This document shows, piece after piece, positions 8,532 to 59,805 of a stretch of 64,000 nucleotides of DNA. Position 1 is the stretch's first letter, and the number at the start of each line of letters is the position of its first letter. The position numbers and the translations under genes are program-made. The DNA comes from Trypanosoma brucei (lineage: Eukaryota), in NCBI GenBank assembly GCA_000002445.1, contig CH464491.1, forward strand, positions 1,952,001-2,016,000, in the 5' to 3' direction. The notes under the pieces are model-generated. The model was not told where the DNA came from and did not search any database. It saw nothing but the letters and a program-made list of their open reading frames with translations.

Positions 8532-8674
8532 ATCTACAGTTGGCACTTTAAAAGGCGGAAGAGGGAAAGCAATCGATTAAAACACAAAGTACATAGAAAC
8601 AACGACATATTCCGGCGTGATAGTTGTATCGCATACCAACTTCTTCCACTCCAAAATACTCGCAGCTTAGACAC

Positions 8675-12110: not shown

Positions 12111-13599
12111 TGTCAACCCCTCACAGTTCTCCCCTCTTGTTCACCTTGAGCAAGTTATGCCACATGTTGTGAGACTCATCAATCACCTTCATTGCGTATT
12201 CCTTGTCCTTGAATTCACCATCGAAAGCAAAATGGCTCGCTTCACCACCCTGACAAATCTTGTACACACGGAACCACTCACGGATGGCATCAAGACATCC
12301 AGGAAGGAACTTCGGTACGTCATGGATGTCTCTCAAGAAGTGACATATAGGATCGCTGTGGGATATGCAAACAACTTTCCAATCCATTTCGCCCTCGTCA
12401 ATCATTCCAAGCACACCTAGCACTTTTACTGCACTCACCTGACCGACTTTGAATTGCGTCATCCCGATCTCAACAGCATCTACGGGGTCATTGTCACCAG
12501 TCACACCAGCCTCGAATAACACCTCTGTGCTCTCCCATGTCTGTGGAAACGCACCATAGTTCCACATCATATCACCATGCTTGTAGAACCGAGGTACGCC
12601 ATTCTTGATATCCTGCTTTATGGGATTAAATGACTCTCCAGTCGCGATCTCAAACTTTGCGCGCGTCCACTTAGGGATCTCACAGATGAAATTGTAGCGA
12701 TTCATTGGTGTCGCCTCGGGCTTTGTTCGCACAAGATCACGTACATACAGCGGGATGTCATGCCACGGCGATACCTGCCGCTCCCTACCGGTTTCCAAAT
12801 CCCTGAAGAAGTACAGTACGCGGTAGCTGGGTGTGTACATTTCACCTTTCTCGTGCACAACCAACTGCTGCTGGTGATACGGCATGGAGAAATCGGCAGA
12901 CACCATCGAGAAACATTTCGTCCTGGAATGTACAGGATGGGAACACCACCACGCCCAAAACTTCTCAAATGTCACGTGACCATCGATAGCATTGATTTCA
13001 GCTTTCATGGCCTTCACATCCCCATCGCTCATGTTACGGCCCAAGTACCTGCATACCTCTTCCACTTTGTCAGGCGTGAGGTAGCCAAGATGCGTCACAT
13101 CGAATGCTGAGAATAATCGACTCATGATCTTTTTGATCATTGGTTGAGTGAAATCATCCTTGTCGTAGGCGGCAAGATCCAGTTCGCTCACCTTCCGGTC
13201 AACCGCCTCCTGAATAGGCTCTGCGACGTCGGCCTCAGAACCCCTGCCGGTACTTATGTTGGTACCATGCAATGCCGAGACAGGCAGCCCCGCCACTTCG
13301 GCAGAAGCCAAATCTTGGGGAGACGTTCGATCACTGCGCGAATCCACACCGTGTGTGTTGTTCATATCTACAGTTGGCACTTTAAAAGGCGGAAGAGGGA
13401 AAGCAATTGATTAAAACACAAAGTACATAGAAACAACGACATATTCCGGCGTGATAATTGTATCGCATACCAACTTCTTCCACTCCAAAATACTCGCAGC
13501 TTAGACACTCAAATGCTTTGCTTAGCGATGCTTAACGCTGCCTGCATGCGCGCCAGAGTTCTTCTTCTGCTGTCGACCTCACTGGCTAGATACGCACGC
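12111..13599. repeat. Segmental duplication unit B (about 1.49 kb)
   Basis: Partner of 7277..8765, about 4.83 kb away in direct orientation. It includes the 3' end of CDS 13509..13943. Confidence 0.85.
12121..13365 (-). CDS. VSP1: Soluble inorganic pyrophosphatase with N-terminal EF-hand domain (VSP type), copy B
   Basis: Near-identical to 7287..8531. It differs at a handful of residues in two small patches (PFSASLG vs PVSALHG; GKMD..HND..CRFMK vs GEMD..HSD..CHFLR). Confidence 0.85.
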   Translation of the reverse strand: MNNTHGVDSRSDRTSPQDLASAEVAGLPVSALHGTNISTGRGSEADVAEPIQEAVDRKVSELDLAAYDKDDFTQPMIKKIMSRLFSAFDVTHLGYLTPDKVEEVCRYLGRNMSDGDVKAMKAEINAIDGHVTFEKFWAWWCSHPVHSRTKCFSMVSADFSMPYHQQQLVVHEKGEMYTPSYRVLYFFRDLETGRERQVSPWHDIPLYVRDLVRTKPEATPMNRYNFICEIPKWTRAKFEIATGESFNPIKQDIKNGVPRFYKHGDMMWNYGAFPQTWESTEVLFEAGVTGDNDPVDAVEIGMTQFKVGQVSAVKVLGVLGMIDEGEMDWKVVCISHSDPICHFLRDIHDVPKFLPGCLDAIREWFRVYKICQGGEASHFAFDGEFKDKEYAMKVIDESHNMWHNLLKVNKRGEL

Positions 13600-41119: not shown

Positions 41120-43978
41120 CTAGACGGTGGGGCACGCAGATGTCACGCGGCGCACGCCTCGGGAAAGGAAGTGTAGGCTGGCCAAGTTTACCGTGGTGCG
41201 CGGAACCTTTTCTGCGACAGCCTTGTAACCAACCCTGGCCTCACTTACCGTTTTGTCCGCGTGGCAAGCAACGCAAAGTGTCTGTAGGTTGTCTAAATCA
41301 GAAGATCCCCCTCCTTGGGATACGGCTAGTATGTGATCTGCATTCCAGATGCTCCCCGGAGTAGGGTGCTCAACAATTCGGTTAAAAAGCACAGGGTGCT
41401 GTCGAAGTTGGGGGTGCAACCTGTCAAGTATATCTTCCCGTTCACTTCGACTAGTCGCAGCGACTGCTAAAGAATAAAGCAGTTCACAATCCACCTGACA
41501 AACCGAACAGATACCTTTGTCTACCTCCTGAACGCCCCTGCGGGCTGCAGAGCTGGACCGTTTGATAAAGAATACCCCGCGGCAGGCACCGCTACAAAAC
41601 ATCCGGGTATCATCGTCTATACGCACGACGCTGCCTGGTGAAATGAACTCCGAAGCTACCAGCGTACTGTCGCACTCCAAACACACCGGCAGAAAATGAG
41701 TTTCTAAAGGGACTAGCAATGCCCCGTAAGTGCGCTCGGGGAAATTGCGTTTCACTACCTTCCAGAAAAACACCCTGCCCAAGAGAATGTCGCTCTTGGC
41801 GTAACGGACAACTGTTTTCCGAGGTGCTCTCACCGGACGCCACGTAAAGTTAGATGGAAGCCAGGCGGCAGCCGTCCGCAGTCTCCGCCGTTCAACAGGA
41901 GATAACATATCGACATGGCTCAAGTAATCCCTCAGCTGCCTTGGAAACTCACCATCATGCCGCCAGTACTGCTGTGCCTCCTGAGTCGACAAACTCGTTA
42001 GATGCTTGCCTTCATGAACCACATGAATTCGACCTGTGTTGTGGCTGATACGGAAGAGAAGGGGTGCCGATAACCCTGATATGTCCAAAAAGGAGGGGGC
42101 TGGATGTCCCGCAGACGGAGTGGCTTCTTCCTCTAGTAACGCATTATGTACAGGCGCAGTGCCACTTAGGTAGCTTGCATCTAACGACAGCTTCACACCA
42201 TCGGTAATGCGCCTCACTGCTTGAAAAGATCGAGAAAGACGCGAAAACTGGGCCCCATCAAAGAAGGATCCCGTACTTATAATGTAATACAGAATGACAT
42301 GATTTTTCTGCCCAGGGCGGTGAAGCCGATCTTCCGCTTGCTGCATCCAACCGATGTCGGGCGGAAGTTCCGCAAACAACGCGCAGGAAGCACCTGTCAA
42401 CCGAACTCCAACCGCACAAGCAGTGATCCCGACAAGCGCTACAGAGACGTCCCCATCATTAAAACGTGAGAGCAGTTCCACTCTCGAGTTCATGGGAGTC
42501 CCTCCATCGATACGTATCCATGTAACCTTCTTATCGTTTACGTAAGTCGTCAGGCAATCCAAAAGATTAAGATGATGTGCAAAAAGCACAATTTTTCCAT
42601 GCTTGCAAAGCAAAAGGTCAACAATGTCTAGTATTTTTTCACGACTTTCAATCCAATTATCCGAATAAACCTTTTGGAAGAGGGACTTGTTCTTCTGACC
42701 CCTGATTGCATCAGTTGGAATACGCAAAATAACTCGTTGTTTCGTTGGCAAATCAACTAATGTTTCCGATTTAAGCCGACGAATCATGCAGGTTGCGTTT
42801 AGCAATGAATGCAATTCGGTACTTCGCGTACACTCAAATGTCCTAAAATATGGTGAGAACTCAATACGACAGTATCGCAAAGCAAATTCGAACCTTGAAG
42901 AGCCAAGCAAACCGGGACAGACCGTATCAACCTGGTTGAAAAGGTCAAAAGGGGTCGACAGCGAGGGAGTCCCGGTGAGAAGCAAACAATACTTTGTTCG
43001 CCTTCCGAGTTCACACAACAGGGTGGTGTAGTGTGCATCACAGGAAGCGTCAACTGAAGTATGGAGAATATGGCTTTCATCGACGACTAGGGAGCTCCAT
43101 TGACGACTCTTCATGTGGTTGGCCAACAAGGAAACCATATGAAAACTTGTGACAACAACCTTAGGTTCATCACTGCGGGAAAGGAAGTCACTCGAGGAAG
43201 TAATAACGCGAATATCGTCCATGTTCAGAACATCCATGAGCCATTTCTCCAACTCGTCCGCCCACATGTGCCGCAACGCGGCAGGGCAGACAATAAGTGC
43301 TGGAAAGGCGTTCAAGGCGGCCAAGGTTCCAATGGCTTGAAGGGTTTTACCAACACCCATTTCGTCAGCAAACATGGCCCGGCCACCGAATGACAACGCT
43401 TTACAAATCCCATCCACCTGATGCCGGTGTAACGCAGCCATAAGTTTTGGTGGCAGAAGATCCGGTAAATGGACAGCTTTGTTTTCTTTAACGGTTGATA
43501 TCGCTTCCCTGCAAACTCTTGAAGGCTCATTGACGTGGAGACGGTTTCCGCTCTCACCCGATAACATCCTAAGCTCATGCAGAAGGAGATCCAGTGAGTC
43601 AATGGAGTATCGAAAGCAGCCCTCTTGTATCATTGTCGACTCGCTCAAACTAAGTGGCAGCTCTTTCATAATTTGAAGGGAAGCTGAGGTAGTCATATTC
43701 ATGAAACCTAAGCGAACACATCTGTTGGTAAAATCGATTTCCACTTGCGCTATTTTGCAGTTATGTGTGGAAATCCGACCCGATATAACGGGGACAAATT
43801 CGATGAACCTTTCCCCCTCATTCAACTCTGCAACGTAATCACGAAGAACAGATTGCACGTTAAGAATTCCGTCAGGGCAACGGCACTCGAACACGCAACC
43901 AAAACGGGAAATCCTGAATAATCTCTGTGAACAGCAATCAAAGCAGTATTCCTGACCCCTTCGAAGTAGCTGCTCCAT
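41120..43978 (-). CDS. SNF2-family DNA-dependent ATPase with C-terminal HNH nuclease domain (ZRANB3/SMARCAL1-like annealing helicase)
   Basis: SNF2 motifs LADEMGVGKTLQAIG, DESHILH, LLLTGTPSLS. Helicase-C motif QAEDRLHRPGQ. C-terminal HNH motif CSVCQ...WNADHILAVSQGG...NLQTLCVACHADKT. Confidence 0.7.
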   Translation of the reverse strand: MEQLLRRGQEYCFDCCSQRLFRISRFGCVFECRCPDGILNVQSVLRDYVAELNEGERFIEFVPVISGRISTHNCKIAQVEIDFTNRCVRLGFMNMTTSASLQIMKELPLSLSESTMIQEGCFRYSIDSLDLLLHELRMLSGESGNRLHVNEPSRVCREAISTVKENKAVHLPDLLPPKLMAALHRHQVDGICKALSFGGRAMFADEMGVGKTLQAIGTLAALNAFPALIVCPAALRHMWADELEKWLMDVLNMDDIRVITSSSDFLSRSDEPKVVVTSFHMVSLLANHMKSRQWSSLVVDESHILHTSVDASCDAHYTTLLCELGRRTKYCLLLTGTPSLSTPFDLFNQVDTVCPGLLGSSRFEFALRYCRIEFSPYFRTFECTRSTELHSLLNATCMIRRLKSETLVDLPTKQRVILRIPTDAIRGQKNKSLFQKVYSDNWIESREKILDIVDLLLCKHGKIVLFAHHLNLLDCLTTYVNDKKVTWIRIDGGTPMNSRVELLSRFNDGDVSVALVGITACAVGVRLTGASCALFAELPPDIGWMQQAEDRLHRPGQKNHVILYYIISTGSFFDGAQFSRLSRSFQAVRRITDGVKLSLDASYLSGTAPVHNALLEEEATPSAGHPAPSFLDISGLSAPLLFRISHNTGRIHVVHEGKHLTSLSTQEAQQYWRHDGEFPRQLRDYLSHVDMLSPVERRRLRTAAAWLPSNFTWRPVRAPRKTVVRYAKSDILLGRVFFWKVVKRNFPERTYGALLVPLETHFLPVCLECDSTLVASEFISPGSVVRIDDDTRMFCSGACRGVFFIKRSSSAARRGVQEVDKGICSVCQVDCELLYSLAVAATSRSEREDILDRLHPQLRQHPVLFNRIVEHPTPGSIWNADHILAVSQGGGSSDLDNLQTLCVACHADKTVSEARVGYKAVAEKVPRTTVNLASLHFLSRGVRRVTSACPTV

Positions 43979-45253
43979 GGCCCCAAGGTCGTCAGTGCCA
44001 CCTGAAATATATAAAGAAGATTCACATAAAATCCACTACCCCTATGTGTATGCAACAGTCAAAACCGCCATAGAGGATGAGAATCAAAGAAAGGACCAAT
44101 GCATGCATATATTGTGGTGCGCGTCTAGTAACACACCACAGTGACAGCACCACTTCAAACTAAAAAAAAAAAGCTCGGCCTCTCAGTCTTTTCGTGCAGA
44201 GTCATGCAACTTTGCATGCGAAAGAACTGTGGGCAGCATATTTTCACCCTGCGGCAAACACTGCTCGTGGTCTCAGTGATATAAACGCCCTTAAATGTTT
44301 GGAAACATATTCATACGTAAAACATCGACGCGGCATATTTAAATTAATATGCCAGTTTCTTCAATAAACACATAGCAAAAGCGATTTGCTACCAACCAAC
44401 GAAAGATCAAGTACGGCTTCTGATACCTTTACAGCGCCGATGCTGGAAGGCACTTGGTGGTCTCCGATGGCGGCGAGGACCAGATCTATCCCCTGTCGCT
44501 GGAGAACACCAAAACCTTTTCGGTTCCACGATAACAACTAGAAACTTACTGTTCAACTCACTCAATGTTGTGAGCAGCGTGCCGTTTGGGGATCAAAGAT
44601 TATACAGGAAATCCGAAAGCACAAGTACGTTTCGGTTTCTCCAAACCCTTGTGCGCTTCGAGCTACCGGACAGCAGTGGGAGCCCCGTACACACACAGAC
44701 ACACACACGCACGCACAAATACAAATAATTTTCTTCGACACATTTGAGAATCAAACACAATCTGGATCCTTTGCCTCCTCTACCATGGGTCCGTATATAA
44801 TAAACCGCACCGGGACCTTATGCAGTGAAGTTAGGATGCGTCACTGGTTGTCTAGCTCTGAGCGGTTCTTGTTACTGATTTCCCCCTAAAATAAATTATG
44901 TTTCAGTGAAATAAAAAGATTAAGACACATATTTACATCAAATCACTATGTCACACTTAATCAAACCCCTTAATGCAGCAACTTTACTCCCAAAAGAGAA
45001 ATATCAGAGGGGGAATAGCACTACAACAGGACCAATAAGTGGGCAAAAGAGCATCGTTCCATTTGGTTGAAGAAAAAAAAACATTTTGAGCACAGAAAAA
45101 AATTACCAAAAAAGCCGTCGCTTTCTTGGTACGTTACGTTCTTATATAACAATGTAAACGCTATTACAGGGTGTTGTCTTCCCTATTCTCTCCCCTACAA
45201 CTAACCATTTTCGCTATGTTCCCCTATGGAAAAAAAGAAGGATACTCCGCCCT

Positions 45254-46165
45254 TTAATAACCCTGCTGAATACTTTCCGCTAGTGGGGGTTTGTGCTCCC
45301 CTCCATCCACCATCTCCTGTGGTGTCTTCCTACTCATAGCCTTCCTACTTGGTCTTGGTGGTTCTTTTATGTACATTGGCTTCGTTCGTACCTCACGATT
45401 GTTCTCTGCGTATCGGGCAAACTGCTCCCGTGCCTCCCGTTGATCTTCCAATTCCTCCCAAGTCAATTCCCACGAGTCTCTGTGCTCTATTGCAAGCAGT
45501 ACCATGTGTTTGGCAGCCTTTATCATGTCGTCCTGTTCCTTTTCAGTTAAGTCCCTCACCTTTTCAGCCGGATTTCCCGCCCACATTTCACCTGAGGGGA
45601 TGACCGCGCCTGACTGGAGAACCGAGGCTGCGCACAGCATGGAGCCAGACTCTATCTTTGCATCCCTCATCACAATGGCGTTAGCCCCGACGAAGGAGCA
45701 AGACGCTATATCAGCTGCATCAACAATCGCCATGGGTTCGATGGTCGTCCACTTGCCAATAGTTGTGCCTCCCGTCACGATCGCTTTCTCCTGTACGTTA
45801 CAGCTTTCCCCGAAATATATTGTTTCTCCCCTTTCTGCACGAACAATGGCATTATACCCAATATAATTCTTCCGCCCTACACGAACATCACCCGACAAAA
45901 ATGCACTAGGGGCAATGAAAACGTTATCCATCACGGTTGGACGCACTCCGTTTACTGCAAGGAGTCTTGGAACACAATTTAACGCTTCCCTTGGCTGCAC
46001 TCCCATTAACGCATCACTCAAGGAAATAATCTTCCTCGACACCACGGAAAGTTTTGTTGCCAGTCTGTCCAGCGCGAGAGCAAGTTTCGTTGGTTTTTTC
46101 ACCGCCCAGTCAGGAAGAACTGCCGGCATTTGCGCTTCAGCAAGCGCAAGCCTACACCGTTTCAT
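45254..46165 (-). CDS. Gamma-carbonic-anhydrase-like left-handed beta-helix protein (probably non-catalytic)
   Basis: Hexapeptide-repeat core (GDVRVGRKNYIGYNAIV...IGKWTTIEPMAIV...SFVGANAIV) and a family-typical GEMWAGNPAEKVRDL tail. The metal-ligand histidines are absent from the core. Confidence 0.6.
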   Translation of the reverse strand: MKRCRLALAEAQMPAVLPDWAVKKPTKLALALDRLATKLSVVSRKIISLSDALMGVQPREALNCVPRLLAVNGVRPTVMDNVFIAPSAFLSGDVRVGRKNYIGYNAIVRAERGETIYFGESCNVQEKAIVTGGTTIGKWTTIEPMAIVDAADIASCSFVGANAIVMRDAKIESGSMLCAASVLQSGAVIPSGEMWAGNPAEKVRDLTEKEQDDMIKAAKHMVLLAIEHRDSWELTWEELEDQREAREQFARYAENNREVRTKPMYIKEPPRPSRKAMSRKTPQEMVDGGEHKPPLAESIQQGY

Positions 46166-46436: not shown

Positions 46437-47612
46437 TTACACAAGTCGTGTCAGACGCGCAACCACGCTATCAACAAGTCCCAGGACTACGAACAAGCCA
46501 CCAATTATTCCACAGAGTTGCACCAAAAAGTGGTATATCGGTTCTCGTTTGAAATTATTGTTCACCTGCATTGGAAAAAAATCGAAGGAAAACTCGACAG
46601 AAGGAAAACCACCATAGCCAATAGCCACTTCACGGGAATTCCAGTTTGCGCTGTATTCATATGTCGGGGGGTGGAGGCCAGATGAAGCGCCACTTCCGTA
46701 GGTGGTAGGCACTATGTTCAAATAATACCTGACCTTCATGAATCTTCCACTGCCGTTAAATCGTTGTTTCTCCAGTGGATTTAAAACACCTCGGCGAGAA
46801 TGACGTCTTACGCTTTCGTCCCCAATAGAAAATTTATTTATCACATGACTTGCATCAAATTTCAAAAGGTCCTCCATCTTGATTGTGTTTTTGATGACCT
46901 TTGGAGTGAAAAATATAACGCCACTCACTTTTCTTACATTCAAGGCACCCCTGTAATTACAGCCGGGGTTTTCCAGAGATAGTTCACCGATGCATTGCTC
47001 GACCACATTTTTATTCGGCCTCGGCAGTCCTTTTCTATCGTGTTCGGCCATAACTTCTTCGCAAGTGTTGCAGCAATTCTTACCTCCAGCGATGGCTTTA
47101 TTACCAGTAAAACACCTTCCGCAAAAGTCGGGGGAGTTGGGGTCATTTCTCCTAGTATATAAAGGGCTCCTGGGGTCTGTGAAAAAGCGTCGGGTGCCCA
47201 AATAGGCAAGATTTCCCCCTACATCCACGGGAGTTTTTAACAGGTTTTCCGTAACATTAATACTAAAAGTTCCGCTAACATCACTCACATCGAGGAAAAG
47301 ATCGTGACACGGCTCTTGCATGAATGTAATGTCAATATTAAAAGTGATATTCTTCTCAGGGCTGGTATCCACTGATAGTTCCGTCTTGTAGGCATTCCAA
47401 CCTAAAGTGTAGGACATAACTTCCCACGATGCAAGAAGCCCAACCGCAAAAACTGTTATAATGCTAATAATAGCACCAGCTCGGGTCTGGGATCGGCAAT
47501 AATCCTCCTTTGGTTTCGTGAAAAGGTCTACAGCTGCAACTTTCCGAAGCAAAAAGGACGACGGAACTGGCTCGTCGTCGCTTTCGCTGCTGCGTTTCCG
47601 GAGGCCTATCAT
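46437..47612 (-). CDS. ERGIC3/Erv46-family ER-Golgi vesicle transporter protein
   Basis: N-terminal DLFTKPKEDY...TRAGAIISIITVF transmembrane segment, a Cys-rich lumenal CGRC...CCNTCEEV block, and a C-terminal transmembrane segment IIGGLFVVLGLV. Confidence 0.7.
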   Translation of the reverse strand: MIGLRKRSSESDDEPVPSSFLLRKVAAVDLFTKPKEDYCRSQTRAGAIISIITVFAVGLLASWEVMSYTLGWNAYKTELSVDTSPEKNITFNIDITFMQEPCHDLFLDVSDVSGTFSINVTENLLKTPVDVGGNLAYLGTRRFFTDPRSPLYTRRNDPNSPDFCGRCFTGNKAIAGGKNCCNTCEEVMAEHDRKGLPRPNKNVVEQCIGELSLENPGCNYRGALNVRKVSGVIFFTPKVIKNTIKMEDLLKFDASHVINKFSIGDESVRRHSRRGVLNPLEKQRFNGSGRFMKVRYYLNIVPTTYGSGASSGLHPPTYEYSANWNSREVAIGYGGFPSVEFSFDFFPMQVNNNFKREPIYHFLVQLCGIIGGLFVVLGLVDSVVARLTRLV

Positions 47613-50600
47613 TGAAATAAGTTATACGGCTGTTTCTTCATACATTGAAAAGGAAGAAAGCACTCGGTGCTGCTGTCAGTAGAAGCAGAAAATGAACGCA
47701 GAGCCACAAGGGGCTACTTGCAGACACCTCATGGCATTGATGCTAAAGTGTCTCAACAGCGTGACCGCATCTGAATAAGACATTACTCCTGGTAGTTACA
47801 CATTCCATCCCAAATCAAAATACAAACACGTGGAGTGGAAGGGAAGGGGAGGAGCACAAGAACAAACTGCGATCATGCCCGTAGAGAGGTCTTGGAGGGC
47901 AGGATAACTCGCTGACGATCGAATCTGCGCCATCCGCCAGAATAAGGCAATTCAACAAACACATGTAAGATTCCGCAAAAAAGATTACAGCGCTAAATGT
48001 TTACGTGCAGCGGCCCCTACAATTCTCTTGGGTCATTGACAGCACCTAGACTTCTCTTGTCAGCCACTCAGGCACATTTGTCCCCACCTTGTTTCCTTCA
48101 GGTGAGATATTTTTTTCACTTGTCCCCCCTACTCTGGAGCAACATTTGTTGCGCGGGTGTAACTCCCAAACTTTAGAACTCCCCACTGAAATTCATTACA
48201 CTGCAGTAGACATTCACCAGGATCACGACCGACCACCACGACGAAGCACACAACAAGGTGCTAGCTGGTGCTTATGATGTCATCCCGCCTTTGAGCACTC
48301 GATGCACACTCTTACTTTGGCGACTACGGGCTGCTTTTGAATAGTATTCGCTGTCTTTTAAAATACTAGGTGCTTGGCGGACCAAAGAGCTTTTTTTCTT
48401 TGGTGAAAGGGGGGTCAGACTGAAGAGGGGCCCACCGTTCATCCTCCCCCTAACACCATGGAAAAAGTTAATCACCATACAAGGTTTAACACCCTCTTTC
48501 AACAAGCCTTCTCCGTGGTTCATGGCGCTTTATCCGCAGTAGAGCTGACCGCACCCACGCGCACGCCGTTGGGAGTTATTTCCCCCTCTTGCTGGTCCTC
48601 GAATAAAAAGCATACCACGAAATCGGATAAACCCTGCTTTCGCTGGAGAATCAGCGGGCATTCCAGCGTACTCGATGCTAACTCAGGTGGTTGGCGACCC
48701 GTTAAGGAGGAAAGGCAACAACATCAGCTTTGGGGTTTGATAAGAGCGCCCACGCGACCTTCAGCACGTGCAGATGCGCTTTCTGGGATACCTGCAGTGT
48801 GTTTCCGTTTTTGAGCTCACTGTCCGAACTAGACACGTGCCCAACTTCATATGGATCGCGCAGGAGACCTGGTGTTCTCTCAAAGCCAAAGAGGGTGGCA
48901 TCGGCAAAACACCCGTACAATTAAAAATCTAGCCTTGCCATCGTGTCCACAGCTCCCTTGTGTGCGGAGGAGAGCAAACTCACGAGGATATCTTAATATC
49001 CGAGCAAGCGGCTGCTCCAAAGTGTAAAGAATACCGATACTTCTGGGTAATCGTATAGCGTCCGGCAACGTCGACAGGCGCTGTTTCCATCTCAGATAAT
49101 GCCTGTTGAGCTCATGATCGGAGACTGGTTGCGTTTGAACCTTGGTCCCGTGCGTTTCCTGTGGCCGTTAACCGTCATCCGACCACCGCTGGCGTGCCGT
49201 CTTCATAGGGGAACTCTTCATAACAGGGAATGCGCACAAAAAAGGAAAAAAAGCACAAAGAAACACCGAGGACGGCGGGAAGGTGTAGGCAGAGCGATTG
49301 CCATATCCTGGCGGATTTGTCAGGACGTCAGGTATTTCATCTAGAGCCGCGGTGTTAACGTTCCAGGGAAATGGAAAAAGGACGGAGTAATTCGAGGGAA
49401 CGGGGGGAGCCCCACGTCGGTACAGAAGAAGGAGCGTGGCAATAGAAGGTGCATCCATGTCGCTTGCAGGTGTTGCCACAAAAGAGTCAGGAAAGGGGGA
49501 AGAGAATGACGGTGTTTAGCGATTCATCATCCCCTCTAATTGGCGTAAAAGCTGCCCCCTGAGGTAAATGGGAGTACCTTGCAACACGCACGGAGAAGCA
49601 CAGCATAATTAACCGGAGGATGAATGCCTTTAGACCTGCAAAGGACCAAAAGCGGAAAGAGGAAGAAAAGTAACTTGGAGAGGGCGCCGTTTTCGAAATA
49701 CGCCAAATCAACCTCGTGTTTTGTATTCGCAGTGCCACGCGGTACAACCCCTTAAGCCGTCTGAACCGAGATTCTGAATCAATCTCAAGTGAAAGGTAGG
49801 AGCATTTCTGCCCCCTCGTAGCGGTTGTGGGGAAGGGGAGTGCCATCCCGAAATGCAGGTGGCGTGCCGTCAAACCCTACGAAACACGGTGTAGTAGTTC
49901 CCAAGGTACCTGTTCATTCTCCCTTAGTGACTCTCGACACTAGTGCTTTTAAGGCGTCACCACCCGGCGATCCTCTTCTTTTGTGCTACGCTGTGCGGTC
50001 AGACCTAGTAAGAATCGCGAACCCCGCGATGAATAAGCGTCTACAGGAAAAGGAAAGGAAAAGAAAAACGGCAGGGACTGTGATAATCGCACCGTTAGAG
50101 TGCCAACAGCGCGTGAATCAACTATAGTTGCCATGCCTCTGAGAAGAAGTTTGAGTAACGGAAGCTGCTGTTGAGATTCATGGACTTGTCGCGGGTGATC
50201 GCACCCCTCATGTACAGTTCTGGGTTGAAAAGAGAGTGAGAGGAGGGCAAGGCGAAGCAGATAGGCTTGATTTTCCCCGCGGCTCGTTTATTATTCCTTT
50301 TTCCTTCGCATTGCACCGGTAAGAACCCCGAAGGTAGCATTACATTTTCCCTGCTGCAGGGGCATGTGCTGCCGGTTGAGTCGAGCGTTGCATCGGGCTG
50401 TCTCACCGAGCCAAATGGTGTGGGTGTGCCACCACCTCTTCTCCGAGGAGTGGAGTTCCTAAGCATCGCCCATCCGGCTGGCCCCAGAAATATTATTTCA
50501 GTCTTTTAGGTTACAGTGGTGAAGTGCCACCCGAGCTCATATTGGCCGAACCGTAGGCGGAAGGGGAATTGTGAACTTTCATGGCCCTCTCTTTTTTTTT

Positions 50601-51566
50601 TCCTTGGTGACCGCCGCCTTCCCTGAGCCCTCTCTGATTGGGGGGAGCGGAAGGGGATCCCGCCGGTTTCATCTCCGTCGTTGGAGAGTTACTTCCCCGG
50701 CCCCTTCGATCGATGTTTCCTCGTCCGTTTCTTTGGTTTATCGCACCTGTGTGGACGGGTTGTTGGTTTCTGGTACTTCGTCTTTTGATGTTCGAGCACG
50801 CCCTTTAACCTCTAGGTTGGACTCCTTCGACGCACGCATGTTCTTCCACAGTGCGGGCGCCGAGGTTTTTTTGTTTTGGCACCCCTTCTACCTGCGTGTA
50901 CAGCCAACGTGGATCAGCTGGTGGACACAGTTGGCCTCCGGGCGCGTCCTCTTTTAGCGGTATTCTCTGAAGGCGGGTGGTTAAGACTCATTTTTTATTT
51001 GTGCCGCTGTTACTTCAATGTGATCCTGACGCATCGTGCATCTGCTTTGTTTGTGCTAGCTGATCGTTGCCACTGTTGGTTTGTTGCTGTCCCTATGTTG
51101 TTGTCTCTTACAGGGTGTGGTGGTAGTGTTTGCTTTACGTTCGTATGGTGAATGCCTTCTACGATGTTTTGATTTCCGGACGTTTTGGGTCTTTGGTTTT
51201 GTTAGTGTTTAGTGTTGACAAAGTTGTTAACGTTGGTGCTGCAGCCGACGTGGGACTGTGTGGGCCGTCGGTACTATTGGTGTGTGTAGCTCTCCCTCTT
51301 GGCTTCGTTTCAACAGCCCTTTCACGTAGCAGGTAACGTGGTTGCTGTACCTTTGAGATGTATATATATATATATTGGAAAGAATTGTCCTACAAAAGGG
51401 ACAAGGGCAGCTGATTTACTTGAAGTAGAGAGGGTCGTTGGGAAGAGGGTTGTTTGGCTTCATTCTCCCAGATTAGCTAATTGGCGACAAAACGCAGTTT
51501 GCTACCATCTTTTTTGCTCTGCCTTTTCATGTTCTCCTACACTCTATAAAGCTGTTGCTAAACGCG
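47613..51566. promoter_or_regulatory. Divergent strand-switch region (probable RNA pol II bidirectional transcription start region)
   Basis: All genes below 47612 are on the minus strand and all genes above 51567 are on the plus strand. The intervening 3.9 kb has no ORF longer than 130 aa. Confidence 0.7.
50570..51360 (+). promoter_or_regulatory. GT-rich tract upstream of the first plus-strand gene
   Basis: The plus strand is strongly G+T-biased, for example gtgtggtggtagtgtttgctttacgttcgtatggtg...ggtctttggttttgttagtgtttagtgttg, and ends in a (TA)8 repeat. Confidence 0.4.
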
Positions 51567-52322
51567 ATGGCCAAACTTGGGACCTTGTACTCCGATGATA
51601 AAAGCGTAGAAAAATATTACGGTCAACGCCATCGGTTGTGGTCTCGTTTTGACGACGGCGTTTGGATGACGAAGAAAGGATGGTTCGAGGTGACGCCTGA
51701 AGGCATTGCCCGATCTTCTGCTTCCCTGCATGACGTTCTCAAAGATAAGGGATGTTGTTTGGATTTGTTTTGCGGCTGTGGCGGTGACACAGTCCAATTG
51801 GCTCAGGTTTTTGAAAAGGTAATAGCTGTAGATATAGATCCCGATGCTATAGAAGCAGCCAAAAAGAATGCCGAGGTATATGGTGTTTCGACTCGAGTTA
51901 CATTTCTGTGCGCCGACTACAGGACTCTAAAACCTGAAAACTTTTCCGTTAACGCTGTTCACTGCTCTCCCCCATGGGGCGGTGAACTGTATGCTGGTGC
52001 GCCGTTTTTCGATTTGCAAAATTCGCTTTGTGCCTCAAATGGCATAAAAATTTCGGACTTTTATGAACTGCTGTCAAAATTTTCGAATAATATTACCATG
52101 TTTCTACCGAGAAACACTCTTCTGTATTCAGTAGTTCCACCAAAATTTGCTTGGACCTTTGCGGTGTGTAGACACTATGCCAACGAAAAGTGCAAAGGGA
52201 TTACTATTTTGTGTGGCGATTTGGTAGCGTCTTCCCAGCTGAAAGCACCCTCAGCGCCAGTGTATTCAATACGAAATAAGATTCCACTTTGTGTAGAGAA
52301 GCGAGGGCGTGGGTCTTTGTGA
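51567..52322 (+). CDS. TGS1: Trimethylguanosine synthase (RNA cap guanine-N2 methyltransferase, minimal form)
   Basis: WFEVTPEGIA, SAM-binding DLFCGCGGDTVQLA, VIAVDIDPDAIEAAKKNAEVYGV, and the catalytic SPPWGG motif. The track ORF starts at a TTG at 51555; the first ATG is at 51567. It is the first gene of the plus-strand unit. Confidence 0.8.
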   Translation: MAKLGTLYSDDKSVEKYYGQRHRLWSRFDDGVWMTKKGWFEVTPEGIARSSASLHDVLKDKGCCLDLFCGCGGDTVQLAQVFEKVIAVDIDPDAIEAAKKNAEVYGVSTRVTFLCADYRTLKPENFSVNAVHCSPPWGGELYAGAPFFDLQNSLCASNGIKISDFYELLSKFSNNITMFLPRNTLLYSVVPPKFAWTFAVCRHYANEKCKGITILCGDLVASSQLKAPSAPVYSIRNKIPLCVEKRGRGSL

Positions 52323-52484
52323 ATAAAATCTAAGTTGTTTATGGTTTTGTTGTCATCCAAGTGTCACCAAAATCAACAGCTCAAGGTGTACAGACTCGCT
52401 CTGTTTCTGTTTTTGCAATTGAATAAGTATTAATTGTTCACTTTACAAAACACATTTTTTCCCTGCCACCTTCTACGAAGTAGG

Positions 52485-54146
52485 ATGAAGAGATACCGTT
52501 CCTCTGTTGTTACGAGATTAGTGAGGGCGATCACACTCCGTCCCGATGCTACCGTGGACCCAGAGAGGTATCCACTGGGCTACGTGCCTCTTGATGGATC
52601 CGAGTCGGTTGACAGTGTATGGTCTCTCGTAAAAAGTGGCGCCTTCGTTGCCCCACTTAGTAAAATCGAAACCATTCACAGGGCTCACGTGGGGATAAGG
52701 TATCTCACGCAGTCGGAGTATCCTGCTCTTAGTAGTATTGACGTTGTGGGTTTGCAAACCAGACTAAAGGAGCTATGTAGTCGCTTGCTTATACGACGTG
52801 ATTTCTGGGTTCTTGATGATTACAATGACCCCGAGCTTAATTCCAGCTTTGGTATCCAGAATATGTACTTTGATAACTTCAAGTGGTCTCAAGTTTTATG
52901 GAGAAGGTTTCAGCAGTATGTGGAGGAGTACTTTCCCGTAGCTGAGCACACCCATTTGACGTACGATGAGTACCTCCAGTTGTTGAGAAGTTTTTCTCAC
53001 TTTGAACAAGGTGCGAAATTGTTGCCATTACTACCCAAGCGCTACAGAATACATCCACCGTTCGGAGTGCCCGCACTGTCGAGAATTGACATGGAGCCCC
53101 TCCTGCTGTACAGTCAGTGGTTGAAAAATTTTAGAGGACCCTTGAAGCTTGACGCGGCTCTCGTAATCAGGAGTGGTTGTGGGGCTGCGGTATTTGCAAC
53201 AAAGTTAAACGGTGTTCCCATTGTCAGAGGTGTGGATCCAAACCCCAGGGCGGTGATGTCATGTCGTAAAGACGCTCAACGCATGGGGAGACGGTTTGAC
53301 TCTATTAGTTTTCGAGTCGGTGAGATGTTCCCAGACAAAGATGATGGCAACGGAGTGCCCAATAGCCGCAAATACGATATCATCGTTTTTTATCCTGATC
53401 AAGGATGCTACAACTTATTCTTTACAAATGCCATTGGCGAATATGCTCCTGTACTAACCGGATTTGCGGGGACGTTGGAGCACTTTTTTGAGGAAGCGGG
53501 GGACTATCTTTCAGACTCGGGCGTTATTGTATTATGTTGCACCAACGTCTATTCTATTCTGAAACCAACTGAGCCGCACCCTATTGAATACGAGATAAAA
53601 GTGAATCGGAGGTGGGTGTTGTTGGATTATTATGATATGCCGGTTAGAGGGAAAGGGACCTTATCCCACACTCCGACGGACCATCACTATCGTATTCCTA
53701 TGGAAATGAGGAAGTGTATGCGAAGCGAACTGTGGGTGCTGCACAAAATGACTTCCATAGCGCACTTTGCACATATTCACAATATACCCGGAGCGCAGCC
53801 ACCGTCTTGTGTCGTATCGCACTGGAGAAATAAGGCAATAGGCAAGCTGAGACGTGCTGTGCTCAAAGGTCAAGTGGAATCCAGTGGGGGTGACTGGGAC
53901 GACTACAAAAAACGGCTCGTACACCTACTTCAAGAGCAAAGCGAAAACGACGAAGACGATAAAGCTCAAGCCATCCGGATGGCGATGGACCCAAATTACC
54001 CAAAGGAACTCGCGGACCGTGCTAGAGCTGCCATCGAAAAAAATATGGATACTGACAAGGCTTTTCACAACAACGTTGCGAAGGCGTTCGGCGACATTTC
54101 GCCGCGGGAACGCTTTGATGCTTGCCTTTCGTGTTATCGTTTTTGA
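52485..54146 (+). CDS. Putative class I SAM-dependent methyltransferase with N-terminal targeting-like presequence
   Basis: The Rossmann-fold glycine-rich motif I (LVIRSGCGAAVFA) is followed by an acidic motif-II-like region (VRGVDPNP). A downstream hydrophobic-D block reads YDIIVFYPD. The N-terminus reads MKRYRSSVVTRLVRAITLRP. The track ORF starts at TTG 52434. Confidence 0.5.
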   Translation: MKRYRSSVVTRLVRAITLRPDATVDPERYPLGYVPLDGSESVDSVWSLVKSGAFVAPLSKIETIHRAHVGIRYLTQSEYPALSSIDVVGLQTRLKELCSRLLIRRDFWVLDDYNDPELNSSFGIQNMYFDNFKWSQVLWRRFQQYVEEYFPVAEHTHLTYDEYLQLLRSFSHFEQGAKLLPLLPKRYRIHPPFGVPALSRIDMEPLLLYSQWLKNFRGPLKLDAALVIRSGCGAAVFATKLNGVPIVRGVDPNPRAVMSCRKDAQRMGRRFDSISFRVGEMFPDKDDGNGVPNSRKYDIIVFYPDQGCYNLFFTNAIGEYAPVLTGFAGTLEHFFEEAGDYLSDSGVIVLCCTNVYSILKPTEPHPIEYEIKVNRRWVLLDYYDMPVRGKGTLSHTPTDHHYRIPMEMRKCMRSELWVLHKMTSIAHFAHIHNIPGAQPPSCVVSHWRNKAIGKLRRAVLKGQVESSGGDWDDYKKRLVHLLQEQSENDEDDKAQAIRMAMDPNYPKELADRARAAIEKNMDTDKAFHNNVAKAFGDISPRERFDACLSCYRF

Positions 54147-54333
54147 GTAGTAGTTTTATTGTTTTTACTGTCTCGCTGCGGACCGTTGTCGCCAATATCT
54201 CACATAGATTCCTTGCGAACTTGTGTAATTAAAGAACTTGTTGCTCATTTATGTTTTTTCTCTCTTATTTTTCCAAACAAAGAGTAACCGAGCCTCTTGT
54301 GTTATTTTAAACCTATTCGTCGTCGTTTGTAGT

Positions 54334-54726
54334 ATGGACGTGGTTGAAAAATTTCTTTCTCTTCGCCGTGAAGGTCGTGGCGAAGAAGCGTATAAGATGC
54401 TTGCGCCTGGCGCAGCGATGGGCTGCCCATGGGGAGGAATGCACCACGGGGAGACTGTGCAGGAATTACTAAGAGACGAAACCCGGTTTGTTAAGAGAGG
54501 GTATCTTGACCACGTGCCCATTGAGAAAATTGACGAGAACACTTTTCAAAGGAAGTTCAAGTGGGATCGTGGAATGTCTGAGTATGGTAATAGTGGTTTT
54601 AAGGGCGTAGGCATTCTACCCGTTTGGCGTGAGATATACTTTGTTGATAATGGAAGCATCCGCCTGGTTACAGCCAACAAACAACTTAAGAATCGGTCAT
54701 TGTGGCACGTGCTTGGGGTTTCATGA
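54334..54726 (+). CDS. Hypothetical protein (130 aa)
   Basis: ATG at 54334 (MDVVEKFLSLRREGRG...). It fills the gap between two confident genes on the same strand. I recognise no family. Confidence 0.4.
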   Translation: MDVVEKFLSLRREGRGEEAYKMLAPGAAMGCPWGGMHHGETVQELLRDETRFVKRGYLDHVPIEKIDENTFQRKFKWDRGMSEYGNSGFKGVGILPVWREIYFVDNGSIRLVTANKQLKNRSLWHVLGVS

Positions 54727-55166
54727 GTTCGTTGAGCAGTTGGGACACTTGGAATACACCTGAGCATCTGGAGAGACAGGCATGTGTGTCCCGAACACAA
54801 CGGATACTTGTCTACGTATCCTAGCGGCAAAGTAGGCGCACTTATGCTCAACGCATGAACTGTGTAAAATAGCGTTTTGTCCGCGTTCGAGCGTCTTTTT
54901 TCAGAGATGCGGTAGGCCCTTTCAACGATCAACCATCCCCCCTCTATTTAGCAATGGGTGTGAGAGAGTTGCTACCCACTTTTGTTTACCGTGTTCGTGC
55001 TCCATTGTTTTAATTTTTCGAGGCCGGACAGTTTTCGAAGTACTGCGGGGCAAAAACAAAAAAACGGTGACCTTATCACTCTTCCTGTCCCACGACAATT
55101 TGTCTGTTTGCCTTTCCGTTTGTTACAACTTTTTAAAGAAAAAAAGCTGGGGTTTTAGCAGGTGCC

Positions 55167-56477
55167 ATGAAACGAAGGAGGGACAGTAACGGTAAGTCCA
55201 TTGCGGCACTTAGGGCTGGGGTGGCAGCGCTGAGCGTATCTAGCAATATAGCTTCTAGGGAGCTCACCTGTCGTGATTCCCATGTTAAAGCTATATTAGA
55301 CTTCTTGAATGATAAAGTTCACCCTGTCATGCAGGTTTTCGGTATGCCGGGTACGGGAAAGACAGCGTCAGTGAACCACGCCCTCGCTCTTCTTGCGAGC
55401 TCGTCACCAGCAGGGTCGAAGCCCACAGCTGTCTTTCTTAATGGGTACATTATACAAAAAACATCTGATATATACTGGACCTTGAACTCACACCTAAGCA
55501 AAACTCGGTTAAAACATGCTGAAAATTGCTTACCGGAGCAATGTCCTGCTCTGATCGAAAAGAGATTTAAGCAAGGTTGGGGGAGTAGCACTACGCCCTT
55601 ATGTGTGATAGTTGTCGATGAAGTTGACAAAGTCCTTAAAAAGCACAACAAGGCGTTTTTCAGGATAGTAGATTGGTTAAGTCTACCGTATGCGTTTTGT
55701 AAACTGATAACAATTTCAAATAGCATGGAACTGGCAGCTGATGCGAAAACGAGAAGTCGACTGGACATAACGAAACGTCTCGTCTTCGAACCATATAGTC
55801 TGCCTGAGCTCAAGGAAATTATTCTTCGAAGAGTCAGTCACATCAAACCTACGTTATTTGCAGAGAAAGCAATCAACTATCTATGTAACCAAACTGCATC
55901 GCACTACGGGGATGTGAGACGTCTTTTACAATCTGCTTCCTCCGCCATTTGCGGTCTCATGATGAGAATAGAGGAGGGTTACAAGTTGCCGGAGAAGCAT
56001 GATGGCTTGCTAACTGTAAAGGATGTTCACTCAGTTGTTCGCCAAATATTTCACGATCGCTTTGTTGAGTTTATCCAAACTATTCGTCTTCCCGTAGTGT
56101 TTATCAGCGTTGCTGTCATTGCAGTAGAGACAGCAAGGCTTTTTCGAGCGAACTGCGAGGACAGCCGACTACCCATAGATAGCTTGTTTACGGCAACGAA
56201 GAGAGCCCAAGAGCGTTTTGGCTCAGTTTTTGCAGACCTACATGCCGTCACTTTGAACTATGGGGCGTACCTAGAAATAGTAGAGATGCTGCGGGAGGTA
56301 GCACTGATTGACGTTTCGGTAGGTGAAGAGCGCATTCCCGTCAAAACGGTTCAGTCACTACTCGAGGCCACTGAGAGGGCACACGCGTCAATGCTACAAC
56401 CATTCCAAACAGTCGTCGATGCATGCAAGCTCCACGATGACTTTGGTACGGGGATATGCCCACTGTTTTCGATATAG
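55167..56477 (+). CDS. ORC1/CDC6: ORC1/CDC6 AAA+ replication initiator
   Basis: Walker A GMPGTGKTA, Walker B VIVVDEVD, a sensor-2-like GDVRRLLQ, and a C-terminal winged-helix-like region. At 436 aa it is consistent with the trypanosomatid single-domain Orc1/Cdc6. Confidence 0.8.
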   Translation: MKRRRDSNGKSIAALRAGVAALSVSSNIASRELTCRDSHVKAILDFLNDKVHPVMQVFGMPGTGKTASVNHALALLASSSPAGSKPTAVFLNGYIIQKTSDIYWTLNSHLSKTRLKHAENCLPEQCPALIEKRFKQGWGSSTTPLCVIVVDEVDKVLKKHNKAFFRIVDWLSLPYAFCKLITISNSMELAADAKTRSRLDITKRLVFEPYSLPELKEIILRRVSHIKPTLFAEKAINYLCNQTASHYGDVRRLLQSASSAICGLMMRIEEGYKLPEKHDGLLTVKDVHSVVRQIFHDRFVEFIQTIRLPVVFISVAVIAVETARLFRANCEDSRLPIDSLFTATKRAQERFGSVFADLHAVTLNYGAYLEIVEMLREVALIDVSVGEERIPVKTVQSLLEATERAHASMLQPFQTVVDACKLHDDFGTGICPLFSI

Positions 56478-56706
56478 TTGTAAAATACCGTCTTAGGACG
56501 TGTGTGCTTTAAACGGATTAAAAAAAAAAAAAGCAAAACAAACCAACAGATCACGCAAAAAAGATGACTCTGTATGTCACTTGAATTAAATACTGTTGTG
56601 CGTAAGCGATTTGTTAGAAACGGAGCGTTGTGGCTAGTATGTAACCATTACAATTATTCTTCTTGTACTTTTTCTCGACACTGGAGAATGAGGGGGACTG
56701 GAGACT

Positions 56707-59547: not shown

Positions 59548-59805
59548 GTATAAGGCACGGGGCTCATTTGATGTAACACCTGTTAGCGTAAACGGAGGAA
59601 TGCATAACCACCCCCTTGCCCGTAATCAGTTGGTTTTACACATCCATGCCCCCCCCCTTTTACGTAGGTGCACTGGTTAGTGGTGGTGCAACATGTCACC
59701 TATACGTACTCTCTGTGGAGGACTCTGCTGGTGCATCGTTGCATTACTTTTGTTCATTTCCTTTTTTTTTTTTGCTACTGACGACTAGGTTTAGTAGAAC
59801 GCAGA

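What the first reader, a model, noticed from the sequence alone, without database searches (positions are those of the whole stretch)
47613..51566. 3.9 kb ORF-free divergent strand-switch region
Coding strand flips from minus to plus across this gap. In trypanosomatids such divergent regions are where RNA pol II initiates both polycistronic units. In T. brucei they are marked by H2A.Z/H2B.V nucleosomes and H4K10ac, and are often bound by ORC1/CDC6. The region is unusually long relative to the 0.2-1.3 kb intergenic gaps elsewhere in the window. It could also hide small RNA genes. I looked for tRNA A/B boxes and found none convincing, but a covariance-model search was not possible.
Basis: partly seen in the sequence, partly recalled or inferred. 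Interest (0 to 1): 0.5.

Follow-up and report, generated by a model that had tools for sequence, protein, structure and literature searches.

The report
Known trypanosome divergent transcription start gap
This 3.9 kb gene-free stretch of Trypanosoma brucei chromosome 11 is an already catalogued site where two gene arrays are transcribed outward in opposite directions; it is not empty, because a published 1.7 kb non-coding transcript fills the place where related parasites keep a conserved gene.

Summary
The window is T. brucei chromosome 11 (Tb927_11_01_v4 1,952,001-2,016,000). The gap 47613-51566 lies between the start codons of Tb11.02.5080 (ERGIC/ERV, minus strand) and Tb11.02.5090 (TGS cap methyltransferase, plus strand). 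No open frame in it exceeds chance. It holds no Pfam domain, tRNA or Rfam RNA, and its ORFs are frameshifted or change freely between subspecies.

Kolev et al. 2010 (Table S14) list exactly these two genes as the first ORFs of a divergent pair of Pol II transcription units.

- The gap is not silent. Kolev's trans-spliced, polyadenylated transcript Tb11.NT.92 (1735 nt, minus strand) maps to 47727-49462. The sequence shows the expected AG acceptor and polypyrimidine tract.
- The length has an evolutionary explanation. In T. cruzi, T. theileri, T. grayi, T. conorhini, Leishmaniinae and two unnamed, probably kinetoplastid, organisms a coiled-coil protein gene sits directly upstream of ERGIC. The orthologous TGS-side gap is only 420-665 bp in T. 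cruzi and T. theileri. T. brucei and T. vivax lack that gene, and no relic is detectable.

The compositional switch point is at about 50.1 kb. A GT-rich block at 50.4-51.4 kb faces TGS. Already known; low interest.

The parts
46437..47612 (-). Tb11.02.5080, ERGIC/ERV-family protein (391 aa). It is the first annotated CDS of the minus-strand polycistronic unit.
   Evidence: Pfam PF07970 and PF13850. Exact match to EAN79683. Kolev Table S14.
47613..51566 (.). The CDS-free divergent strand-switch region (3954 bp, 50% GC).
47647..47660 (-). Polypyrimidine tract (CTTTCTTCCTTTTC) upstream of the ERGIC start codon. It is the presumed trans-splice signal for ERGIC, coupled to polyadenylation of the upstream transcript.
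   Evidence: Sequence scan. The coupling is inferred from the known link between trans-splicing and polyadenylation cited in Kolev 2010.
47727..49462 (-). Tb11.NT.92: a published trans-spliced, polyadenylated 'novel transcript' of 1735 nt. The last column of its Table S7 row reads 0.81; I did not check that column's heading. No conserved ORF.
   Evidence: Kolev 2010 Table S7, chr 2001462..1999727, minus strand, converted with the offset. Absent from Kolev's tables of coding or peptide-supported transcripts. Its first-AUG 96-aa ORF has no Pfam match, and the enclosing 103-aa ORF (49168-49479) is frameshifted in T. b. gambiense.
49463..49506 (-). Splice-acceptor anatomy of Tb11.NT.92. An AG lies at 49463-49464 directly upstream of the mapped 5' end, and an 18-nt polypyrimidine tract (TTCTCTTCCCCCTTTCCT) lies at 49489-49506.
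50045..50068 (-). The last (most upstream) long minus-strand polypyrimidine tract, 24 nt. The next long tracts at higher coordinates are on the plus strand (50294-50307 and 50585-50605); three shorter plus-strand runs lie at lower coordinates.
50100..50300 (.). Compositional strand-switch point. The global minimum of cumulative GT-AC skew for the 64 kb window is at 50122, and the TA-skew minimum is at 50261.
50400..51400 (+). GT-rich block on the plus (TGS-sense) strand, peaking at 0.66 G+T. It is the candidate dispersed GT-rich promoter region for the plus-strand unit.
   Evidence: The TSR-enriched 10-mers of Wedel 2017 give 24 and 21 hits on plus against 6 and 2 on minus. This is not specific: ordinary intergenic bins reach 37.
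51361..51375 (.). (TA)7.5 microsatellite, length-polymorphic between T. b. brucei, T. b. gambiense and T. equiperdum.
51567..52322 (+). Tb11.02.5090, trimethylguanosine synthase-like cap guanine-N2 methyltransferase (251 aa). It is the first CDS of the plus-strand unit.
   Evidence: Pfam PF09445 at 1.5e-33. Kolev Table S14. Named TbTgs in PMC2588526.

Best explanation
The gap is the divergent strand-switch region (divergent Pol II transcription start region) between two polycistronic units of T. brucei chromosome 11. One unit runs leftward from Tb11.02.5080 and the other rightward from Tb11.02.5090.

Shown:
- The two units are head to head.
- The published 5'-triphosphate RNA-seq catalogue calls both units 'Divergent' starts.
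- There is no coding sequence and no small RNA gene in the gap.
- The minus-strand unit does not begin with ERGIC. It begins with a 1.7 kb trans-spliced, polyadenylated, apparently non-coding RNA (Tb11.NT.92, 47727-49462).

Inferred:
- Minus-strand initiation lies upstream of the NT.92 acceptor, roughly 49.5-50.5 kb.
- Plus-strand initiation lies in or just before the GT-rich block at 50.4-51.4 kb.
- The real non-transcribed or bidirectional core is therefore about 1-2 kb around the skew minimum at 50.1 kb.
- Initiation is dispersed and chromatin-defined (H2A.Z/H2B.V, H4K10ac, SPARC), as described for T. brucei start regions in general.

Origin of the extra length. About 2 kb sits in the syntenic slot of an ancestral coiled-coil protein gene. 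That gene lies directly upstream of ERGIC in the non-salivarian trypanosomes sampled, in Leishmaniinae, and in two unnamed, probably kinetoplastid, organisms. It is absent here in the T. brucei group and in T. vivax. The slot still yields a processed transcript because a polypyrimidine tract followed by AG is enough for trans-splicing.
For: Identity and offset.

Divergent start pair: Kolev 2010 Table S14.

No CDS. No gene is annotated in the gap in T. b. gambiense or T. equiperdum.

No small RNA genes.

Tb11.NT.92: coordinates. The AG acceptor and 18-nt polyY tract sit exactly at the predicted position.

Skew minimum at 50122. GT-rich, strand-biased block at 50.4-51.4 kb. This matches the GT-rich coding-strand bias at the 5' end of start regions in Wedel 2017.

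Synteny:
- A coiled-coil gene lies directly upstream of ERGIC in T. cruzi, T. theileri, T. grayi, T. conorhini, L. tarentolae, Leptomonas, the GCA_041447055.1 organism and a Logan assembly.
- Homology among these genes is confirmed by profile searches.
- The TGS-to-coiled-coil distance is only 420 bp in T. cruzi and 665 bp in T. theileri.
- The gene is absent upstream of ERGIC in T. vivax.
Against: - No locus-specific chromatin, Pol II or TSS coordinates could be read, so the positions of the two initiation zones are inferred from composition and processing signals only.
- The minus-strand side has only a weak GT-rich signal.
- The long G-runs typical of many T. brucei start regions are absent; the longest G or C run is 6.
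- GT-rich 10-mer density as high as in the gap also occurs in ordinary intergenic regions of the window.
- The gene-slot idea rests on synteny alone. No sequence relic exists. T. congolense was not available. Loss of the gene from the whole T. brucei genome, as opposed to relocation, is not proven: the searches have limited sensitivity or truncated listings.
Confidence: 0.88

Rival explanations
1. The gap hides an unannotated protein-coding gene, for example the 96-aa ORF opened by the first AUG of Tb11.NT.92 or one of the 114-128 aa ORFs.
For: Tb11.NT.92 is trans-spliced and polyadenylated like an mRNA. Its first AUG, 5 nt from the 5' end, opens a 96-aa frame.
Against: - ORF lengths match the shuffle expectation.
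- The enclosing 103-aa ORF and four other ORFs are frameshifted in T. b. gambiense or T. equiperdum. Intact ORFs show 17 non-synonymous to 3 synonymous changes.
- No Pfam domain in any frame.
- The four ATG-initiated gap ORFs tested are absent from the 15-billion-protein collection.
- NT.92 is not in Kolev's lists of conserved or peptide-supported novel transcripts.
Confidence: 0.04
2. The extra sequence is a decayed pseudogene of the ancestral coiled-coil gene, and Tb11.NT.92 is its fossil transcript.
For: NT.92 has the same position, strand and approximate length (1735 nt against a 1425-nt CDS) as the gene directly upstream of ERGIC in eight other lineages.
Against: - tblastn, a family profile HMM on six-frame pieces, and sensitive blastn/nhmmer find no similarity.
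- The positive control works: the ERGIC CDS aligns to T. vivax at E=4e-103.
- The absence is shared with T. vivax. The loss is therefore probably old, and a recognisable relic is not expected.
Confidence: 0.1
3. The main function of the region is as an ORC1/CDC6-bound replication origin. This does not exclude transcription initiation.
For: Generic figures only. 62 of 88 divergent SSRs carry at least one ORC1/CDC6 site, and 19 of 42 early origins sit at divergent SSRs (Tiengwe 2012).
Against: No locus-specific data were retrievable. About 80% of grouped ORC1/CDC6 sites are not active early origins. No sequence determinant is known that could be tested.
Confidence: 0.25
4. The gap harbours Pol III or small RNA genes (tRNA, snRNA, snoRNA) that set the boundary of the transcription units.
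For: Some T. brucei transcription-unit boundaries lie next to tRNA, snRNA or rRNA genes (the 'next to tRNA' type in Kolev Table S14).
Against: ARAGORN finds 0 tRNAs. Rfam finds 0 at gathering score and 0 at E<=10. Kolev classifies both units as 'Divergent', not 'next to tRNA'.
Confidence: 0.02

Closest known systems
T. brucei divergent strand-switch regions / divergent Pol II transcription start regions (Siegel 2009; Kolev 2010; Wedel 2017; Staneva 2022)
   Same: Two polycistronic units lie head to head. The spacer has no CDS. The GT-rich bias is on the sense strand on the TGS side. The locus is listed as a divergent pair in the published start-site catalogue.
   Different: There are no long G tracts, and the GT-rich signal on the minus side is weak. 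The first processed RNA of the minus-strand unit is a non-coding transcript, not the first annotated gene.
Kolev 2010 'novel transcripts': trans-spliced, polyadenylated RNAs without an annotated ORF
   Same: Tb11.NT.92 is one of the 1,114 listed. It has the canonical polyY plus AG acceptor.
   Different: It lies at the very head of a transcription unit, inside a strand-switch region. It occupies the syntenic slot of a gene that other kinetoplastids retain. The neighbouring Tb11.NT.91 likewise occupies the slot of a missing ABC-ATPase gene.
The orthologous divergent SSR in T. cruzi and T. theileri (TGS facing the coiled-coil gene)
   Same: The flanking gene order is the same on both sides: PPR-ORC1-133aa-553aa-TGS on one side and ERGIC-hexapeptide-(ABC)-SNF2-kinase on the other.
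   Different: The spacer is 420 bp in T. cruzi and 665 bp in T. theileri, against 3954 bp in T. brucei. A 474-475 aa coiled-coil gene is present between the switch point and ERGIC.

Membership tests
Trypanosomatid divergent strand-switch region (divergent Pol II start region) | Two arrays of same-strand genes pointing away from each other across a CDS-free spacer | tested here: met
Trypanosomatid divergent strand-switch region (divergent Pol II start region) | Experimental evidence of Pol II initiation in both directions (5'-triphosphate RNA) | tested here: met
   Kolev 2010 Table S14 lists Tb11.02.5080->4570 (minus) and Tb11.02.5090->5410 (plus) as 'Divergent'. Gene identities are fixed. This is literature evidence, not reanalysed raw data.
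Trypanosomatid divergent strand-switch region (divergent Pol II start region) | Enrichment of H2A.Z/H2B.V, H4K10ac, H3K4me3 and SPARC | not testable with these tools
   No locus-level ChIP tracks are accessible. Only general statements were found.
Trypanosomatid divergent strand-switch region (divergent Pol II start region) | GT-rich, strand-biased sequence on the sense strand at the 5' end of each start region (Wedel 2017) | tested here: inconclusive
   The plus side is clear: G+T up to 0.66, and 10-mer hits of 24/21 against 6/2. The minus side is weak: G+T about 0.55, hits of 14 and 12. Similar densities occur in ordinary intergenic DNA.
Trypanosomatid divergent strand-switch region (divergent Pol II start region) | Long G runs on the sense strand (a frequent but not universal feature; the G10 10-mer tops Wedel's list) | tested here: not met
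   The longest G or C run is 6 nt, and there is no canonical G4 motif.
ORC1/CDC6-bound site or early replication origin | ORC1/CDC6 ChIP peak or MFA-seq peak at the locus | not testable with these tools
   Only genome-wide proportions are available. There is no locus entry in the supplements.
tRNA, snRNA, snoRNA or other Rfam RNA gene | Match to a covariance model or tRNA model | tested here: not met
Trans-spliced polyadenylated non-coding transcript (Kolev 'NT' class) | Mapped SL-addition and poly(A) sites, a polyY plus AG acceptor, and no conserved ORF | tested here: met
   Table S7 entry Tb11.NT.92. AG at 49463-4 and polyY at 49489-49506. ORF tests.
Pseudogene of the kinetoplastid coiled-coil gene that neighbours ERGIC | Residual protein or DNA similarity to the gene family | tested here: not met
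   tblastn, profile HMM on six-frame pieces, blastn and nhmmer

The most novel reading that the evidence does not exclude
African (salivarian) trypanosomes did not simply delete the ancestral gene next to this start region. They kept its transcript slot as a promoter-proximal, spliced-leader-capped long non-coding RNA (Tb11.NT.92). That RNA, or the act of transcribing it, would have a function. It could space the minus-strand initiation zone from the first essential gene, or tune start-region chromatin or ORC1/CDC6 loading next to the ORC1/CDC6 gene's own transcription unit. The neighbouring Tb11.NT.91, in the slot of the missing ABC-ATPase gene, would be a second instance of the same process.
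Probability: 0.08. Interest if true: 0.45.

Novelty: already known. Interest (0 to 1): 0.18.

Why it matters
As a strand-switch region it adds nothing new. The locus is one of about 70-90 divergent start regions catalogued in T. brucei since 2009-2010.

Two modest points have some value:
- 'ORF-free' spacers at the heads of polycistronic units can contain processed non-coding transcripts. The annotated first gene is therefore not necessarily the first RNA of the unit.
- Differences in strand-switch-region length between trypanosomatid species can come from the loss of flanking genes rather than from promoter architecture. This matters when start-region width or length is correlated with activity, as is now being done in T. 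cruzi.

Tried and rejected
- tRNA and Rfam searches, including E<=10 over the gap: nothing.
- Pfam on all six frames of the gap: only a 13-bit chance hit.
- Exact look-up of four ATG-initiated gap ORFs in the 15-billion-protein collection: absent.
- tblastn, profile HMM, and blastn/nhmmer for relics of the coiled-coil gene in the T. brucei gap and the T. vivax upstream region: nothing.
- The same for the ABC-ATPase gene in 43979-45253: nothing.
- Repeats and tandem repeats in the gap: only a (TA)n and short purine-rich repeats. No canonical G4 motifs.
- A full-library profile search with the coiled-coil family was swamped by its promiscuous ~50-aa N-terminal repeat (1338 hits). A search with only the C-terminal profile returned T. 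conorhini and Leishmania but not even the T. cruzi query family. It is therefore weak evidence that the gene is absent from the whole T. brucei genome.
- The extra protein accession between ERGIC and ORC1 in T. b. gambiense and T. equiperdum is a 130-133 aa gene downstream of the 553-aa gene, not a gene in the gap.
- The Cordon-Obras 2022 promoter paper is not held, so its motifs could not be scanned.
- Siegel 2009 is not held. The Tiengwe 2012 supplements contain no locus-level origin data.
- My guess that a T. vivax ORF upstream of ERGIC is a retroposon fragment is not supported by Pfam.
Full report
**What the window is.** The proteins that flank the finding match T. brucei entries exactly: EAN79682, EAN79683, and EAN79686 (ORC1/CDC6). 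Kolev et al. 2010 (PMC2936537, supplementary file 19) give Tb11.02.5060 (SNF2) at 1,993,120-1,995,978 and Tb11.02.5070 at 1,997,254-1,998,165 on Tb927_11_01_v4. These are the window ORFs 41120-43978 and 45254-46165. The window is therefore chr11 1,952,001-2,016,000, an offset of 1,952,000. The left flank (46437-47612, minus strand) is Tb11.02.5080, an ERGIC/ERV-family protein. The right flank (ATG at 51567, plus strand) is Tb11.02.5090, the Tgs cap guanine-N2 methyltransferase. ORC1/CDC6 itself (Tb11.02.5110) lies at 55167-56477.

**Checking the observation.** The coordinates are exact.
- ORFs of at least 200 aa from 1310 to 47612 are on the minus strand, apart from one 203-aa plus-strand ORF that overlaps a minus-strand ORF. 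The four ORFs from 51555 to 59547 are on the plus strand.
- The longest open frame in the 3954-bp gap is 144 codons. That is what shuffled sequence gives (136 +/- 26; 35% of shuffles reach it).
- None of the six frames has a Pfam domain.
- The gap aligns to T. b. gambiense and T. equiperdum with about 1.6% variable sites. The locus-wide figure against T. b. gambiense is 0.8%.
- Five of the eleven ORFs of at least 80 aa are frameshifted in one of those genomes. The intact ones carry 17 non-synonymous to 3 synonymous differences.
- Neither genome has a gene annotated in the gap.
- ARAGORN and Rfam, even at E<=10, find nothing.
- It is the longest CDS-free interval in the window. The other long interval, 3788-7286, holds a 127-aa and a 171-aa ORF that look like small genes on inspection; I did not test this.

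**Checking the interpretation.** Kolev's Table S14 lists putative Pol II transcription units derived from 5'-triphosphate-enriched RNA-seq. It contains 'Tb11.02.5080 -> Tb11.02.4570, minus, Divergent' and 'Tb11.02.5090 -> Tb11.02.5410, plus, Divergent'.

The sequence agrees with this.
- The cumulative GT-minus-AC skew of the whole 64 kb window reaches its global minimum at 50122, inside the gap.
- The segment 50.4-51.4 kb is strongly GT-rich on the plus strand: up to 0.66 G+T, against a 95th percentile of 0.60 elsewhere.
- The 157 10-mers that Wedel et al. 2017 found enriched on the coding strand of start regions hit bins 50501 and 51001 24 and 21 times on the plus strand, against 6 and 2 on the minus strand.
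- This signal is not specific, because ordinary intergenic bins reach 37 hits. On the minus-strand side it is weak.
- Long G tracts, a frequent start-region feature, are absent.

I could not read locus-specific H2A.Z, H4K10ac or ORC1/CDC6 occupancy. Only generic rates are available: 62 of 88 divergent SSRs carry at least one ORC1/CDC6 site, and 19 of 42 early origins lie at divergent SSRs.

**What else is there.** Kolev's Table S7 lists a novel trans-spliced and polyadenylated transcript, Tb11.NT.92, at 2,001,462-1,999,727 on the minus strand. It is 1735 nt long, and the last column of its row reads 0.81; I did not check that column's heading. In window coordinates this is 49462-47727, inside the 'ORF-free' gap.

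The sequence confirms the mapping at single-base level. The dinucleotide immediately upstream of 49462 on the minus strand is AG. An 18-nt polypyrimidine tract (TTCTCTTCCCCCTTTCCT) lies 25-45 nt further upstream. The 3' end at 47727 lies 115 nt upstream of the ERGIC ATG, just before a polypyrimidine tract at 47647-47660. That arrangement is what coupled polyadenylation and trans-splicing would produce.

NT.92 is not in Kolev's tables of conserved, peptide-supported or ORF-less transcripts. Its first AUG opens a 96-aa frame with no Pfam match, and the enclosing 103-aa ORF is frameshifted in T. b. gambiense. The first processed RNA of the minus-strand unit is therefore an apparently non-coding RNA.

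Further minus-strand polypyrimidine tracts extend to 50045-50068. The next long tracts at higher coordinates are on the plus strand, at 50294-50307 and 50585-50605. Together with the skew minimum, this places the real switch at about 50.1-50.3 kb. That is 2.5 kb from ERGIC and 1.4 kb from TGS.

**Why the gap is long.** I fetched the ERGIC loci of other kinetoplastids.
- In T. cruzi, T. theileri and T. grayi a 474-475 aa protein gene (414 aa in T. grayi) sits 185-330 bp upstream of ERGIC on the same strand. The protein has two short N-terminal repeats and a region I took to be coiled-coil from its sequence, without running a predictor.
- In T. cruzi and T. theileri, TGS faces this gene across only 420 and 665 bp.
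- T. conorhini has the gene's C-terminal part at the contig end, directly upstream of ERGIC.
- L. tarentolae and Leptomonas pyrrhocoris have a 285-aa and a 278-aa gene in the same place. A profile of the Trypanosoma family matches them at 5.5e-22 and 4.9e-30. A profile of the C-terminal part alone matches at 2.5e-8 and 9.2e-17.
- Two unnamed organisms, which I assume are kinetoplastids (their ERGIC proteins are 42-44% identical to the T. brucei one), show the same adjacency with 784-aa and 683-aa homologues.
- T. brucei, T. b. gambiense, T. equiperdum and T. vivax have no such gene upstream of ERGIC.

No relic was found by tblastn, by profile HMM on six-frame pieces, or by sensitive DNA comparison. 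The ERGIC CDS control aligns to T. vivax at E=4e-103.

The simplest reading is that the gene pair is ancestral and the upstream gene disappeared from this locus in the salivarian lineage. The orthologue of a 0.4-0.7 kb strand-switch region thereby became a 3.9 kb one, and Tb11.NT.92 now occupies the vacated slot. I could not prove that the gene is lost from the whole genome rather than moved. Three searches found no salivarian homologue, but each has a limitation. T. congolense was not available.

**Mechanism, with status.**
- Shown: head-to-head units; a published divergent start call; no CDS and no small RNA gene; a processed minus-strand transcript with a canonical acceptor; a compositional switch at about 50.1 kb; a plus-strand GT-rich block.
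- Inferred from general T. brucei knowledge (Wedel 2017, Staneva 2022): initiation is dispersed and occurs at the 5' edges of H2A.Z-rich chromatin. It runs rightward from about 50.3-51.4 kb and leftward from about 49.5-50.5 kb. Sense bias comes from GT-rich elements, and positioning comes from SPARC.
- Open: whether ORC1/CDC6 binds here or an origin fires here.

**Verdict.** This is a correct but ordinary call. The locus is already in the published catalogue of T. brucei divergent transcription start regions, and the transcript inside it is already listed. The only additions are the exact anatomy (transcript, acceptor, switch point) and the synteny explanation for the length. Interest is low.

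Noticed in passing
window 43979-45253: The 1275-bp spacer between the SNF2/HNH gene and the hexapeptide-repeat gene corresponds to the place where other species carry an ABC-ATPase (PF00005) gene. These are T. vivax, T. cruzi, T. theileri, T. grayi and T. conorhini (303-304 aa), and L. tarentolae and Leptomonas (378 and 298 aa). T. brucei, T. b. gambiense and T. equiperdum have none, and no relic is detectable. Kolev's novel transcript Tb11.NT.91 (window 44163-45020, minus strand) fills the slot. This is a second case of a processed transcript in the place of a missing gene.
   Followed up: partly
L006 8334-9758; L008 8241-9668; L010 449-1306; L011 1926-2762: The coiled-coil protein next to ERGIC begins with a ~50-aa domain (RFYxxYNPxxxxxVDxIxxxYxGxExxLFxxLxxKYG) that is present twice in the Trypanosoma proteins. 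A profile of the whole family matches 1338 cluster representatives at E<=0.001. The listed best stretches mostly fall on this domain, and some proteins show up to 23 matched stretches. No Pfam family matches it.
   Followed up: partly
window 54238-54726 (+): A 162-aa ORF lies in the 1-kb spacer before ORC1/CDC6. It corresponds to a 130-133 aa gene annotated in T. b. gambiense, T. equiperdum, T. cruzi and T. theileri. It appears to be missing from the TREU927 GenBank protein numbering, where only two accessions lie between EAN79683 and EAN79686.
   Followed up: no
window 7287-8546 and 12121-13380 (-): Two ORFs of identical length (419 aa, GTG-listed) lie 4.8 kb apart on the same strand. This is probably a tandem gene duplication.
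   Followed up: no
window 51361-51375: The (TA)n microsatellite just upstream of TGS differs in length between T. b. brucei, T. b. gambiense (2 nt shorter) and T. equiperdum (6 nt longer).
   Followed up: yes
window 51567-52319 (+): The exact 251-aa TGS sequence of the window is not in the protein collection, although the neighbouring proteins are. T. b. gambiense and T. equiperdum have 251-aa genes at the same place. The window strain's allele or its annotated start may therefore differ.
   Followed up: no
L010 and L011 (locus starts at contig position 1): In L. tarentolae and Leptomonas pyrrhocoris the coiled-coil/ERGIC array begins within 0.5-2 kb of a contig end, and TGS is not upstream. 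Synteny with Trypanosoma therefore breaks exactly at this strand-switch region.
   Followed up: no
window 59548-64000: There is no ORF of at least 200 aa after the PPR gene; only ORFs of 95-150 aa on both strands. This could be a long UTR, an ORF running off the window, or another unit boundary.
   Followed up: no
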